A stretch of DNA of 43,109 bases from Candidatus Micrarchaeia archaeon (GTDB taxonomy: Archaea; Micrarchaeota; Micrarchaeia; CABMEP01). The stretch is taken from contig JAVZCX010000003.1 in the NCBI GenBank assembly GCA_038874185.1, positions 1-43,109 on the forward strand, given 5' to 3'. A program made the position numbers and the translations under genes. The notes under the pieces were generated by a model. The model was not told the origin of the DNA. It ran no database searches and saw nothing but the letters and a program-made list of their open reading frames with translations. Positions 19,834 to 29,533 of the stretch are shown piece by piece (position 1 is the first letter of the stretch; each line of letters begins with the position of its first letter).

Positions 19834-20082
19834 ATGAAGGTAAAAGACATAAAAGGCATGAATGCTGATGAGATGAAATCAAAGATATCGGATCTTGAAA
19901 AAGAATTAAGCATAGAGTACGGAACAAGGTCTTCAGCAGCAGGAAAGTCTAGAAACTATGGAAAGATAAAAACCATCAAGAGAACAATTGCAAGAATGAA
20001 GACCTACATGAGGGCAAGGGAATTGGGCATCCTTGGCAAAGAAGAGAAGAAGGAAAAAAGCGAAGCCCAGAAGAAAAATTAA
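19834..20082 (+). CDS. rpl29: 50S ribosomal protein L29
   Basis: KIKTIKRTIARMKT; synteny. Confidence 0.93.
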   Translation: MKVKDIKGMNADEMKSKISDLEKELSIEYGTRSSAAGKSRNYGKIKTIKRTIARMKTYMRARELGILGKEEKKEKSEAQKKN

Positions 20083-20148
20083 TTGAATGAGATAAGAATT
20101 ACGTTATATTAAATCAAGTTAAATCATATATTGTGTGAGGTGAAGAAA

Positions 20149-20502
20149 ACGGCTGAAAACATATGCCCCACATGTGGGGTGCACAAACTGATAGGAGACA
20201 TATGTTCTGGATGTGGACTTCCTAAAGACATATGTTCCTGCGCTGCAATTGAGAAAGAAACAGCGCAAAAGATAAAAGTAACAATAACAAAGGCAAAATT
20301 CAGGAAACTGGTCACGATCGTAGCTGGCGTGGACAAGAATTCAATTGAGCGTGTTGCAAAGCAGCTCAAGCAATCGCTTGCTTGCGGTGGAACAGTGAAG
20401 AATGATGAAATAATCCTTCAAGGAGATCATGGAGCAAAGATAAAACAATTGCTAACGAAGGTAGGTTATCCTGAAGAGAACATTTCAATAATCCGAAAAT
20501 AA
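20149..20502 (+). CDS. sui1: Translation initiation factor aIF1 (SUI1); start codon non-AUG, ACG proposed
   Basis: CxxCGLPKDIC.C, KLVTIV.G, LKQSLACGGTVK, LQGDH; no in-frame ATG anywhere in the ORF; exact start uncertain. Confidence 0.93.
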   Translation, partial: TAENICPTCGVHKLIGDICSGCGLPKDICSCAAIEKETAQKIKVTITKAKFRKLVTIVAGVDKNSIERVAKQLKQSLACGGTVKNDEIILQGDHGAKIKQLLTKVGYPEENISIIRK

Positions 20503-28027: not shown

Positions 28028-28090
28028 TGGTGAATCATATAATTATAATAAGATCACAATCAAAAAAGAAACAATGGAGAGGTGTATTAG

Positions 28091-29533
28091 TTGAAATTAA
28101 ATTTTATTGAACCAATAATTCCATTTCTTCCAGAAGTTAAAAATCCAGACAGGCCTTTAGGCTTAAATCAAAAGATATTCTGGACCCTTCTTGTACTTAT
28201 TCTGTATTTCACTATGTATCACATTGTTCCTTTTGCAGGTGAGCTTAAAGGAGGAACTTTTCTTGAATTCATTCAAACTGTTCTTGCAAGCAAAACAGGA
28301 ACGTTATTGACAATCGGTATTGGTCCAATAATTCTTGCATCAATCTTTTTGCAGCTTTTTGCAGGAGCAAAGCTTATTGAGTTTGATCCGCATGATCCTG
28401 CTGACAAGAGAAGATTCAGCGCAACCCAGAAGGTTCTTGCGATAGCGCTTTCAATAGTGGAGGCAGCATTGTTTGTAATCCCTGGAGTTTACGTTGGCCC
28501 AGATCCAAACTTTCCATCCGCATCCCTTGCAATGGGATTGATAGTAGCGCAGATCGCATTTACATCCATACTTTTGATATTCCTAGATGAAGTAGTTTCA
28601 AGATATGGAATTGGCTCTGGAATTTCATTATTCATCGCAGCAGGAGTTTCATTGGCAGTTGTGCAAGGTAGCATCTCATTAATATTCGGAGGCCATGGAA
28701 TAGATCCTGCACAGACGGTTCTTGGAAGATTAGCTGTAGGAGGTTCAGGTGCAATCCCATCTGCGCTCATAGCATTGTTGCCGATTGTATTTATGTTTGT
28801 CATAATAGGTCTTTCAGTATATGCAGAGGGAGTTAAAGTTGAAATTCCTTTGACATTCAGAGGATTTGGAACACGCTTCCCAGTGAAGCTTCTTTACGTT
28901 TCAGTTCTTCCAGTTATTCTTACATCAGCATTGCTAATGAATATCCAGCTTTTGTCAAGAGCTTTGCTTTACAACCACAGCTTTATGATAGGTGAGACAG
29001 ACATAATACCTTACATCGGATTGGTAGACGCAAATGGACAGTTGAGAGATGGAATTCTTTACATGATTTCACCTATAACAAACCCATTGTATGTTGGTTC
29101 TTATGAAGGTTATATAGCTACAATTTCAGGTTCAACTCCTTTGTTTGGAATACCAGAGATCGTACACATCTTGATCTATCTTATTGTTTATGTTACATTG
29201 TGTGTTATTTTTGGAAGGTTCTGGATGGAGGCATCAAATATGTCTGCATCTGCTGTCGCAGAGCAGATAACACAGACAGGCCTTTCTATCCCTGGCTTCA
29301 GGTCTGATCCAAGAATTATCGAGCAGCTTCTTGATAAGTATATAACAACTATTGCAATACTTGGAAGCATGTTCGTAGGTTTCCTTGCAGTGCTTGCAGA
29401 CCTTACTGGTGCAATAGGAACTGGAACAGGAATTCTTCTTACAGTTGGAATAATATCCAAGTTCTATGAAGATTTCAAGCAACAGAACCTTCTTGAAATG
29501 TATCCAGGAATTACAAAATTCTTGAAAGGTTAA
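28091..29533 (+). CDS. secY: Preprotein translocase subunit SecY
   Basis: LPEV, GIGPIILASI, GIGSGISLFIAAG, IPGFR, GTGILLTV; TTG start after GAGGTG. Confidence 0.98.
   Translation: MKLNFIEPIIPFLPEVKNPDRPLGLNQKIFWTLLVLILYFTMYHIVPFAGELKGGTFLEFIQTVLASKTGTLLTIGIGPIILASIFLQLFAGAKLIEFDPHDPADKRRFSATQKVLAIALSIVEAALFVIPGVYVGPDPNFPSASLAMGLIVAQIAFTSILLIFLDEVVSRYGIGSGISLFIAAGVSLAVVQGSISLIFGGHGIDPAQTVLGRLAVGGSGAIPSALIALLPIVFMFVIIGLSVYAEGVKVEIPLTFRGFGTRFPVKLLYVSVLPVILTSALLMNIQLLSRALLYNHSFMIGETDIIPYIGLVDANGQLRDGILYMISPITNPLYVGSYEGYIATISGSTPLFGIPEIVHILIYLIVYVTLCVIFGRFWMEASNMSASAVAEQITQTGLSIPGFRSDPRIIEQLLDKYITTIAILGSMFVGFLAVLADLTGAIGTGTGILLTVGIISKFYEDFKQQNLLEMYPGITKFLKG

What the first reader, a model, noticed from the sequence alone, without database searches (positions are those of the whole stretch)
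20131..20200. aIF1 (SUI1) appears to start at a non-AUG codon: candidate autoregulation of start-codon fidelity
Seen: the aIF1 frame contains no ATG. A strong SD, GAGGTGA (20137-20143), is followed 5 nt later by in-frame ACG (20149), giving M-AENICPTCG. That spacing matches the ATG starts of L19e and L15 here. A second SD-like GGGGTG (20176-20181) is similarly placed before in-frame CTG (20188), giving M-IGDICSGCGLPK. The track's TTG 20131 has no SD, and the two in-frame GTGs lie inside the SD motifs. Known: eIF1 autoregulates through a poor start context, and bacterial IF3, its functional analogue, through an AUU start. Inference: an archaeal version of that feedback loop, possibly with two isoforms. 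I know of no description of this, but cannot check.
Basis: partly seen in the sequence, partly recalled or inferred. Interest (0 to 1): 0.82.

Follow-up and report, generated by a model that had tools for sequence, protein, structure and literature searches.

The report
aIF1 gene starting at ACG
In this small archaeon the gene for aIF1, the factor that checks start codons, most likely begins at ACG instead of AUG, and several other essential genes in the group also begin at near-AUG codons.

Summary
The aIF1/SUI1 frame (20131-20502) has no in-frame ATG. A perfect 7-nt Shine-Dalgarno (SD), GAGGTGA (20137-20143), lies 5 nt before in-frame ACG 20149. The genome's 16S tail is complementary to it, and 4-5 nt is this genome's normal SD-to-start spacing.

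Comparison favours ACG as the start (about 0.65):
- ACG is invariant in 20 of 20 distinct orthologues, and is the only 4-fold-degenerate codon that never varies.
- It aligns with the ATG or TTG start of aIF1 in sister families.
- One orthologue type, seen in three assemblies, has no other in-frame start before the conserved zinc knuckle.
- The same genome starts three other genes at SD+4 on near-cognate codons: PCNA (ATC), IDI2 (ACG, replaced by ATG in two congeners) and an AbrB-like gene (ATT).

The main rival is GTG 20140, inside the SD (about 0.2). An in-frame GTG or ATG sits just upstream in 19 of 20 orthologues.

TTG 20131 is not conserved. The proposed second isoform (GGGGTG plus CTG 20188) has no comparative support.

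Autoregulation remains an inference. Weak starts (TTG) for aIF1 are common across Micrarchaeia. Near-cognate starts are not unique to aIF1.

The parts
19834..20082 (+). Ribosomal protein L29 gene, upstream neighbour. It is followed by a 54-nt AT-rich spacer.
   Evidence: In most other Micrarchaeia L29 ends within 10 nt or less of the aIF1 start.
20131..20133 (+). TTG, the first canonical start of the open frame (the 'track' start). Rejected as the start.
   Evidence: No SD precedes it. At the same in-frame position the family orthologues carry AGT, TTA, ATA or other codons, or a stop lies downstream of it.
20137..20143 (+). Shine-Dalgarno sequence GAGGTGA.
   Evidence: It is complementary to the 16S 3' tail GATCACCTCC. 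The motif is kept in orthologues even where it lies out of frame and contains an in-frame TGA stop (type b), so it is conserved as nucleotides, not as codons.
20140..20142 (+). In-frame GTG inside the SD. This is the main rival start.
   Evidence: It is in frame because the spacer is 5 nt. The same geometry occurs at L19e (GTG 25072 before ATG 25081) and L15.
20149..20151 (+). ACG, the proposed initiation codon, 5 nt after the SD.
   Evidence: Invariant in 20 of 20 distinct orthologues, while the other Thr columns vary. It aligns with the ATG/TTG starts of sister families.
20149..20502 (+). aIF1 (SUI1) coding sequence as proposed: 117 codons plus the TAA stop at 20500-20502.
20164..20175 (+). 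First CxxC (CPTC), homologous to the CxxC of the canonical aIF1 zinc knuckle.
   Evidence: C, P, C and G are invariant with synonymous codon changes, so the segment is translated. It aligns with M-x-[DE]-I-C-P-K-C-G of sister families.
20179..20217 (+). Family-specific 13-codon internal duplication (VHKLIGDICSGCG) that carries a second CxxC.
   Evidence: Present in all 8 genome loci of family f1 (L001-L008) and in the 12 metagenome loci L032-L044 that reach this end; not seen in any other family examined.
20176..20190 (+). No support.
   Evidence: The codons vary synonymously or conservatively across orthologues.
20263..20472 (+). SUI1 domain.
   Evidence: Pfam PF01253, residues 45-114 of the 123-aa frame.

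Best explanation
The aIF1 gene is translated from ACG 20149. The 30S subunit pairs its 16S tail with GAGGTGA (20137-20143), which places the codon 5 nt downstream in the P site. Initiator Met-tRNA (anticodon CAU) reads ACG with a mismatch at the second codon position, giving M-AENICPTCG... The in-frame GTG 20140 is part of the SD and is in frame only because the spacer is 5 nt. ACG occupies the position of the ancestral ATG/TTG start. What looks like an N-terminal extension is an internal duplication of the first half of the zinc knuckle. Shown here: the SD, its spacing, the conservation pattern, the positional homology, and the use of near-cognate starts by other genes of this genome and class. 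Inferred: that ACG is the codon used. Further inferred, with lower confidence (about 0.3): because aIF1 is the factor that rejects non-AUG codons, a near-cognate start makes its own synthesis fall when aIF1 is abundant and rise when it is scarce, which would be a negative feedback on start-codon stringency.
For: 1) SD and spacing. The 16S tail is complementary. In this genome GGTGA-to-start spacing is 4 nt (74) or 5 nt (23). Window genes L19e and L15 use 5 nt.
2) Codon conservation. ACG is found in 20 of 20 distinct family sequences. Of 40 amino-acid-invariant degenerate columns only ACG and one TGT keep a single codon. Of the 20 such columns with 4-fold or higher degeneracy, only ACG does. 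ACG is the rarest Thr codon here, 11 of 177 in 15 window genes.
3) Positional homology. T-x-[DE]-N-(I)-C-P-T-C-G aligns with M/L-x-[DE]-I-C-P-K-C-G of other families, whose ATG or TTG follows an SD.
4) An orthologue with no alternative. In L034 (GAAGGTGG AAAA ACG) the GTG is out of frame and a TGA stop lies 5 codons before ACG. There is no ATG/GTG/TTG before the conserved CPTC. The same indel state is present in contigs of two further runs, with 0 gaps.
5) Precedent in the same genome.
- PCNA starts at ATC at AGGTGAT+4. Full-length models align residue 2 to profile position 2. The orthologous codon is ATC or ATT in 8 family loci, and the orthologues of four other families start at ATG or TTG there or next to it.
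- IDI2 starts at ACG at SD+4 in 5 genomes, and the orthologous codon is ATG at the same spacing in 2 congeners.
- An AbrB-like gene starts at ATT or ATC at SD+4, and its first canonical codon is 58 codons downstream.
6) Precedent in another family. Genome G047 has ATA at SD+4 for PheRS-beta (TIGR00471, residues 3-543 to profile 3-550 of 551) and two other genes.
7) A parallel case. Micrarchaeota loci L203, L207 and L208 have AGGTGA ATG xxx TTG. There the TTG at SD+6, not the ATG abutting the SD, aligns with the start of their relatives.
Against: 1) 19 of 20 distinct orthologues keep an in-frame canonical codon 1-3 codons upstream of ACG. It is the GTG within the SD in types a and d, and an ATG directly abutting the SD in type b (7 sequences).
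2) Type d differs from type a by exactly 3 nt, which is what a coding region would show. That change puts ACG only 2 nt after GAGGTGA, shorter than the usual 4-5 nt.
3) There is no direct evidence here: no RNA, ribosome or peptide data.
4) From memory, ACG initiates very poorly in tested bacterial systems, and I know of no experimentally shown ACG start in archaea. The papers I opened contain none.
5) The orthologues form only about four independent lineages, so the conservation statistics are weaker than the raw counts suggest.
6) In the GC-rich genome G008 (58% GC) ACG would not be a rare codon.
7) Against the feedback step: near-cognate starts also occur in unrelated genes, so the feature is not specific to aIF1.
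Confidence: 0.65

Rival explanations
1. Translation starts at GTG 20140 (product MKKTAENICPTCG...). Initiation would be SD-independent or would use a very short leader. ACG would be an ordinary Thr codon whose conservation has another cause.
For: GTG is a standard archaeal start. An in-frame GTG (types a and d) or ATG (type b) occupies this place in 19 of 20 distinct orthologues. The a/d difference is one codon. In type b a 1-nt insertion that breaks the GTG frame also creates an in-frame ATG. By eye, AT-rich TATA-like sequences lie 27-36 nt upstream in the window and centre near -27 in L008. Gene callers give MKKT... for relatives (P0002, P0003).
Against: The GTG lies inside a 7-nt SD that cannot pair with the 16S tail and sit in the P site at the same time, and no SD lies upstream of it. 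The SD is retained even where it is non-coding (type b). It would have no role if the start were the GTG. The in-frame GTG is automatic at 5-nt spacing, as at L19e and L15. L034 and two further runs have the GTG out of frame. This reading does not explain why ACG alone among the 4-fold codons never varies. The type b intergenic region is short and GC-rich, with no TATA-like element that I could see.
Confidence: 0.22
2. Translation starts downstream at GTG 20179, CTG 20188 or ATA 20191, giving a canonical-length aIF1 (MHKLIGDICSGCG or MGDICSGCG). The upstream CPTC segment would be untranslated leader. This is how some public annotations treat relatives.
For: The NCBIfam full-length model aligns from residue 23, at profile position 3. 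Database entries for relatives start MGDICSG (P0005, P0011), MHKLIGD (P0010) and MIGDICSG (P0012, P0016). In the window GGGGTG lies 6 nt before CTG.
Against: The upstream segment evolves like protein. C, P, C, G and H are invariant with frequent synonymous changes: TGC 9 / TGT 11; CCC 7 / CCT 3 / CCA 8 / CCG 2; CAC 10 / CAT 10. The candidate start codons are not conserved: GTG in only 4 of 20, and CTG/TTG/ATG in 13 of 20. The internal SD-like GGTG is present in only 4 of 20.
Confidence: 0.05
3. Translation starts at TTG 20131, the first canonical codon of the open frame.
For: It is the longest ORF under table 11.
Against: No SD precedes it. The codon is not conserved even among genomes 94-99% identical in protein: AGT in L002, TTA in L003, ATA in L005. 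In L006 and L007 a stop lies downstream of the equivalent position.
Confidence: 0.03

Closest known systems
Bacterial infC (IF3) with an AUU start codon and IF3-dependent autorepression
   Same: The gene for the factor that rejects non-canonical start codons itself begins with a non-canonical codon behind an SD, and the arrangement is conserved. The logic of the proposed feedback is the same. The infC facts are recalled and come from no call. The Asano review (PMC4705826, passages read) describes IF3 as the bacterial fidelity factor.
   Different: aIF1 is unrelated in fold to IF3. The codon here is ACG, a mismatch at the second codon position, not AUU. No regulation has been tested. In this lineage other genes also use near-cognate starts.
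Eukaryotic eIF1 autoregulation through a poor AUG context (Ivanov et al. 2010, PNAS; seen only as a reference, paper not read)
   Same: eIF1 is the homologue of aIF1 (SUI1 family). A conserved suboptimal initiation site is used for negative feedback on stringency.
   Different: eIF1 uses AUG with a weak Kozak context in a scanning system. Here the signal would be a near-cognate codon at normal SD spacing.
Canonical archaeal aIF1 with an N-terminal zinc knuckle (M. jannaschii and P. abyssi; PMC6237735, passages read)
   Same: SUI1 fold domain, a CxxC...CxC knuckle at the N-terminus, and a gene placed between L29 and the RNase P protein gene in the ribosomal protein cluster.
   Different: Family f1 carries a 13-residue internal duplication that adds a second CxxC (six Cys in all), and it lacks an ATG/TTG at the ancestral start position.
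Rare AUU/AUC/AUA/CUG starts allowed by NCBI table 11
   Same: The PCNA, AbrB-like and PheRS-beta starts found here use AUC, AUU or AUA behind strong SDs.
   Different: ACG is not among the table 11 start codons that the tool text lists by example; that it is absent from the table is recalled. The frequency here is high for a prokaryote, by recall of E. coli: 3 homology-supported cases plus aIF1, against 94 canonical starts behind SDs of 6 nt or more.

Membership tests
aIF1 / SUI1 translation initiation factor | SUI1 domain detectable by a curated profile above its cut-off | tested here: met
   PF01253 scores 65.4 bits against a cut-off of 25.5. NF002096 scores 113.8 bits against a cut-off of 98.
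aIF1 / SUI1 translation initiation factor | Archaeal N-terminal zinc knuckle CxxC...CxC | tested here: met
   C25-x2-C28 ... C35-x-C37, plus an extra C12-x2-C15, all invariant in the family. That the knuckle occurs in more than 60% of archaeal aIF1 comes from PMC6237735.
aIF1 / SUI1 translation initiation factor | Single-copy gene in the ribosomal protein cluster after L29 | tested here: met
   One match in G000 and in 40 of 41 related genomes. L29 lies upstream and an RNase P protein-like ORF downstream (ORF names assigned by eye).
Fidelity-factor gene autoregulated through its own weak start (infC / eIF1 type) | The start codon or its context is suboptimal and evolutionarily conserved | tested here: inconclusive
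   ACG is conserved in 20 of 20, but a canonical in-frame codon lies just upstream in 19 of 20. Class-wide, 13 of 42 aIF1 loci use TTG or GTG, against 4 of 37, 1 of 19 and 1 of 35 for S3, L29 and L14. These loci are not phylogenetically independent.
Fidelity-factor gene autoregulated through its own weak start (infC / eIF1 type) | The product discriminates against the codon or context used by its own mRNA | not testable with these tools
   There is literature only for other archaea: aIF1 rejects AUU in S. solfataricus (PMC4705826; PMC6237735).
Fidelity-factor gene autoregulated through its own weak start (infC / eIF1 type) | Expression falls when the factor is in excess | not testable with these tools
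   This needs reporters or in vitro translation.
SD-directed initiation site | A motif complementary to the organism's 16S 3' tail at the organism's usual distance from the start | tested here: met
   7-nt complement. The 5-nt spacer falls within the genome mode of 4-5 nt.

The most novel reading that the evidence does not exclude
In Micrarchaeia the level of aIF1 is set by a deliberately weak start on its own mRNA: ACG in this family, UUG in many others, AUA in at least one lineage. This would form a homeostatic loop on start-codon stringency. The same loop would co-regulate a small set of essential genes that also start at near-cognate codons behind strong SDs (PCNA, PheRS-beta, IDI2 and others). 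The family-specific duplicated zinc knuckle of aIF1 could be part of an altered stringency setting.
Probability: 0.2. Interest if true: 0.9.

Novelty: new variant of a known kind. Interest (0 to 1): 0.74.

Why it matters
Three points follow if ACG is the start.

First, an archaeal fidelity factor gene would carry the kind of self-sensing start known for bacterial IF3 (AUU) and eukaryotic eIF1 (poor context). That would be a third, independent version of one regulatory idea, found in the domain where it has not been described. My four paper searches found no such description.

Second, near-cognate starts (ACG, AUC, AUU, AUA) behind strong SDs appear to be in routine use for essential genes in Micrarchaeia. 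Gene callers restricted to ATG/GTG/TTG therefore truncate or mis-start these proteins. Public entries for this one protein already show six different N-termini.

Third, the question becomes testable, because precise peptides and reporter constructs can be named.

Tried and rejected
- RNA evidence: no RNA holder was listed for the stretch searched. Nothing can be said on transcript ends or expression.
- RNA structure: folding 20110-20210 gives z = 0.65, with 149 of 200 shuffles folding at least as well. No hairpin explains the ACG conservation.
- Promoter reading: TATA-like runs upstream of the gene were judged by eye only. In AT-rich spacers they are uninformative, so the leaderless option is neither shown nor excluded.
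- Bulk codon counts at SD+4/5 against SD+10/11 showed no enrichment of near-cognates. The control positions are codons 2-3 of real genes, so I dropped that test in favour of gene-by-gene checks. Of 18 near-cognate candidates listed, I count 3 besides aIF1 as supported by homology. ATA at C12:4100 and ATT at C9:4358 are undecided. The rest have a canonical start nearby or look non-coding.
- The same scan on 206 kb of G008 (58% GC) gave mostly spurious frames: 35 isolated non-near-cognate hits. It was not used.
- tRNA scan: only 26 tRNAs without introns. The initiator-like tRNA has anticodon CAU, A1:U72 and three G:C pairs in the anticodon stem, judged by eye. No tRNA-Thr(CGU) was found in this 85%-complete genome. 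Nothing unusual explains near-cognate decoding.
- The 9-nt SD-to-ATG spacing of aIF1 in other families (17 of 18 ATG-type loci with an SD of 5 nt or more, against 4-6 nt for neighbours) first looked like a conserved poor context. In G047 the SD-like AGGTGC lies in the last codons of L29 (N-E-R-G-A), and L29 stops 2 nt before the ATG. The spacing may therefore be fixed by L29 coding or by translational coupling. I do not use it as evidence.
- DNA of the protein clade that starts MEV(R/S/E/G)xTA(D/E)IC (P0019-P0024) has the same Thr in place of Met. It was not found in 401 class genomes or in genome contigs (best 67% identity). Its codons remain unknown. The same holds for P0017 and P0018 (MRKTADIC and MNEIADVC).
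- Automated start calls for Rpp29 and S17 were noisy, with offsets up to 25 codons. I cite them only as noisy. The L026 aIF1 call (GTG) was wrong by eye and was counted as ATG. The 8 f1 loci were removed before the count of 42.
- Supplements of papers were not opened.
Full report
WHAT IS IN THE WINDOW. The + strand frame 20131-20502 encodes a 123-codon open frame with no ATG. It is aIF1/SUI1: Pfam PF01253 covers residues 45-114, and NCBIfam NF002096 scores 113.8 bits, above its cut-off of 98. The gene sits after the L29 gene (19834-20082) in a ribosomal protein cluster. Source names in the protein database and record titles place the organism's relatives in Candidatus Micrarchaeota / Micrarchaeia. 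The genome held (G000) has 824 kb, 34% GC and 85% completeness.

IS THE SD REAL, AND IS THE SPACING RIGHT? The 16S gene ends ...GATCACCTCCAATTT, so GAGGTGA pairs over 7 nt. Genome-wide, GGTGA is followed by an ATG/GTG/TTG that opens at least 80 codons at 4 nt (74 sites), 5 nt (23) or 6 nt (8), with scattered background elsewhere. Among the 39 GAGGTGA sites in the genome, the intergenic ones with a long downstream frame carry ATG, GTG or TTG at 3-6 nt. By my reading, the aIF1 site is the only exception.

ORTHOLOGUES. Forty of 41 related genomes hold one aIF1. The eight genomes of the window's family (f1, three genera) and 13 metagenome contigs share the extra N-terminal segment, giving 20 distinct sequences. 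Four arrangements occur:
- Type a: GAGGTGA or AAGGTG(G/A), then 5 nt, then ACG, with the GTG in frame. This is the window's type (L001-L006, L032, L033, L035, L036).
- Type b: (A/G)GGTGA ATG AAR ACG. A 1-nt insertion puts the GTG out of frame, makes the TGA of the SD an in-frame stop, and creates an in-frame ATG that directly abuts the SD. ACG is then 6 nt from the SD (L007, L037-L041, L044).
- Type c: GAAGGTGG AAAA ACG. The GTG is out of frame, a TGA stop lies five codons before ACG, and there is no ATG/GTG/TTG before the conserved CPTC (L034).
- Type d: GAGGTGA GA ACG ATC. The GTG is in frame, ACG is 2 nt from the SD, and ATC is 5 nt from it (L008, L042, L043).
TTG 20131 is not conserved.

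The SD is conserved as nucleotides whatever the frame, so it is a signal and not codons. The segment after ACG is translated: C, P, C, G and H are invariant while their third positions vary freely.

EVIDENCE THAT FAVOURS ACG.
- (i) ACG is found in 20 of 20 sequences. Of 40 amino-acid-invariant degenerate columns only ACG and one TGT keep a single codon. Of the 20 such columns with 4-fold or higher degeneracy, only ACG does. Other invariant Thr columns mix ACA, ACC, ACG and ACT. ACG makes up 11 of 177 Thr codons in 15 window genes.
- (ii) In other families of the class aIF1 begins M/L-x-[DE]-I-C-P-K-C-G, with ATG or TTG behind an SD. The family sequence T-x-[DE]-N-(I)-C-P-T-C-G aligns to this, without a gap in type b. 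ACG therefore sits where the ancestral start was. The 'extension' is an internal 13-residue duplication (VHKLIGDICSGCG, 20179-20217).
- (iii) Type c is not an assembly slip. Contigs of two other runs span the site (L034 469-723 and 486-687) with 0 gaps and one substitution at 607, which turns the next codon ACT into GCT. Depths are low, 3.5 and 2.5. The other two runs laid do not cover the site.
- (iv) The in-frame GTG follows automatically from a 5-nt spacer. The L19e and L15 sites show the same in-frame GTG inside their SDs, and the ORF listing even reports GTG 25072 as the L19e ORF start.

NEAR-COGNATE STARTS ELSEWHERE IN THIS GENOME AND CLASS. I scanned G000 for SDs of at least 6 nt followed at 3-6 nt by a non-canonical codon. 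I required at least 100 open codons downstream and no canonical codon upstream or within 8 codons downstream. The scan returned six positions at five genes, three of them near-cognate.
- PCNA (G000 C8:7827): AGGTGAT tttt ATC. Full-length PCNA models align protein residue 2 to profile position 2 (NF002219 2-250 to 2-246 of 247; TIGR00590; PF00705). The first canonical codon is 10 codons in. The orthologous codon is ATC in five and ATT in three family loci. The four other families show ATG at this position, ATG one codon either side of it, or TTG.
- Type 2 IPP isomerase, IDI2 (C19:11264): AGGTGAT tttt ACG. TIGR02151 aligns from residue 5. The first ATG is 14 codons in, after the conserved RKxxH. 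ACG is kept in five genomes of the genus, and the orthologous codon is ATG behind an SD-like motif (4 and 5 nt) in two others, G002 and G005. This is a direct ACG-to-ATG exchange at a start position.
- An AbrB/MazE-like gene (C46:3155, minus strand): AGGTGA ggtt ATT. The codon is ATT or ATC in seven family loci. The first canonical codon is 58 codons in.

A control genome of another family was also scanned: G047, 800 kb read, 39% GC, SD spacing 4-6 nt. It shows ATA at SD+4 for PheRS-beta (TIGR00471, residues 3-543 to profile 3-550 of 551), for a sugar-1-phosphate nucleotidyltransferase (model starts at residue 5; the first ATG lies inside the GxGTR motif, a motif named from recall) and for the AbrB-like orthologue. 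Near-cognate initiation behind strong SDs therefore looks like a property of the class, not of this family alone. The initiator-like tRNA has a normal CAU anticodon.

EVIDENCE THAT FAVOURS GTG 20140. An in-frame canonical codon lies 1-3 codons before ACG in 19 of 20 sequences. Type d differs from type a by exactly one codon. Type b gained an ATG with the same mutation that broke the GTG frame. ACG at 2 nt in type d is closer than usual. The orthologues form only about four independent lineages, so both the ACG statistic and the frame statistic rest on few events. No experiment bears on the question. From memory, ACG is a very weak initiator in tested systems.

Two points reduce the weight of these arguments. 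In G008, a type b genome, GGTGA-to-start spacing is again 4-5 nt (10 and 11 sites). Zero spacing occurs three times, one of them aIF1 itself. Three unrelated Micrarchaeota loci show AGGTGA ATG xxx TTG, where the TTG at SD+6, not the abutting ATG, aligns with the relatives' start.

I put ACG at about 0.65, GTG 20140 at about 0.22, an internal start at 0.05 and TTG 20131 at 0.03. Use of both ACG and the upstream codon cannot be excluded.

THE SECOND ISOFORM. GGG GTG and CTG behave as ordinary Gly-Val and Leu codons. Val is GTG 4, GTA 4, GTC 6, GTT 3, ATG 1, AGA 2. Leu is CTG 5, TTG 5, CTC 3, ATG 3, ATC 4. Nothing conserves an internal SD or start. Low-level internal initiation in this one genome cannot be excluded, but it has no support.

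AUTOREGULATION. This step is inferred, not tested. Across the class, aIF1 uses weak starts often. In 42 non-f1 loci I count ATG 29, TTG 12 and GTG 1. In the same loci S3 has 4 of 37 non-ATG, L29 has 1 of 19 and L14 has 1 of 35. These are automated calls checked by eye. L026 was corrected, the S17 and Rpp29 calls were too noisy to use, and the loci are not independent. In a second sample from genome contigs, the 30 loci that are neither Bathyarchaeia-like nor f1 give ATG 13, TTG 16 and ATA 1 (L185). Two further loci could not be read. The 46 Bathyarchaeia-like loci are all ATG, behind a TATA-like box (read by eye). TTG is common in these genomes generally: 13 of 91 canonical starts at GGTGA+4/5 in G000 and 18 of 71 starts within 15 nt of GGTGA in G047. 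The enrichment is therefore moderate. Near-cognate starts in PCNA, IDI2 and PheRS-beta show that the device is not unique to aIF1. It could equally reflect a generally relaxed or SD-dominated start selection in the class.

The literature I could search holds no description of aIF1 autoregulation or of near-cognate starts in Micrarchaeota (listings read). The aIF1 paper PMC6237735 and the review PMC4705826 (passages read) state that aIF1 destabilises complexes on non-AUG or AUU codons. That property is what the feedback would need.

VERDICT. The ACG start is the best-supported reading but is unproven. The second isoform is rejected. Autoregulation is open. The broader and unexpected result is that several essential genes of this class begin at ACG, AUC, AUU or AUA behind strong SDs.

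Noticed in passing
G000 C8:7827-8582 (L077:128-883 +): PCNA appears to start at ATC, 4 nt after AGGTGAT. The codon is ATC or ATT in 8 family loci, and the orthologues of four other families start at ATG or TTG there or next to it.
   Followed up: yes
G000 C19:11264-12274 (L076:165-1175 +): Type 2 IPP isomerase appears to start at ACG, 4 nt after AGGTGAT. The orthologous codon is ATG in two genomes of the same genus.
   Followed up: yes
G000 C46:2322-3155 minus strand (L078:123-956 -): An AbrB/MazE-like gene of 278 codons starts at ATT at AGGTGA+4. The codon is ATT or ATC across the family and ATA in G047. The first canonical codon is 58 codons downstream.
   Followed up: yes
G047 C1: L175:59-1693 (-), L173:103-855 (+), L174:126-1016 (+): A genome of another family shows ATA at SD+4 for PheRS-beta, a sugar-1-phosphate nucleotidyltransferase and the AbrB-like orthologue.
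   Followed up: partly
L185 (genome contigs), about 48 nt before its CPKC: A Micrarchaeota aIF1 has ATA where its close relatives have ATG (GTG AAT GCT ATA ATA GAC AAA TGT). As in the window, the SD's GTG is in frame.
   Followed up: no
L180, L188, L189, L191, L193 (genome contigs): In several Micrarchaeota, AGGTGA is followed directly by a two-codon mini-ORF (ATG NNN TAA) whose stop overlaps the aIF1 ATG (TAATG). This looks like a termination-reinitiation arrangement.
   Followed up: no
proteins P0001-P0016: Public entries for orthologues of this one protein carry six different N-termini (MHHVVEVKKT, MKKT, MLINSIFNEVKRT, MGDICSG, MHKLIGD, MIGDICSG). One annotation appears to use ATA as the start.
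   Followed up: partly
G000 C4:43-2280 minus strand (L031): The 16S rRNA match spans 2238 nt for a model of 1478 positions, so the gene carries large insertions or introns.
   Followed up: no
G000 C4:19485-19592 and C38:3315-3422: There are two near-identical initiator-like tRNA-Met(CAU) genes, each called with a 32-nt intron at an unusual position. No tRNA-Thr(CGU) was found.
   Followed up: no
G008 sample L116-L132 versus G000: GC content differs greatly within one family: 58% in G008 against 34% in G000.
   Followed up: no
window 28079-28093: The 480-codon ORF (SecY by position, not checked) starts at TTG 28091, 5 nt after GAGGTG(T), with an in-frame TAG immediately upstream.
   Followed up: no
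window 20164-20241: The family's aIF1 has six conserved Cys (CPTC, CSGC, CSC) because of the duplicated half-knuckle. Whether it binds one or two metals, or alters fidelity, is unknown.
   Followed up: no
loci L009-L030, L046-L075, and G047 (L176): ATG-type aIF1 genes of other families have the SD-like AGGTG(A/C/T) exactly 9 nt before ATG (17 of 18), against 4-6 nt for neighbouring genes. In G047 the motif lies in the last codons of L29.
   Followed up: partly
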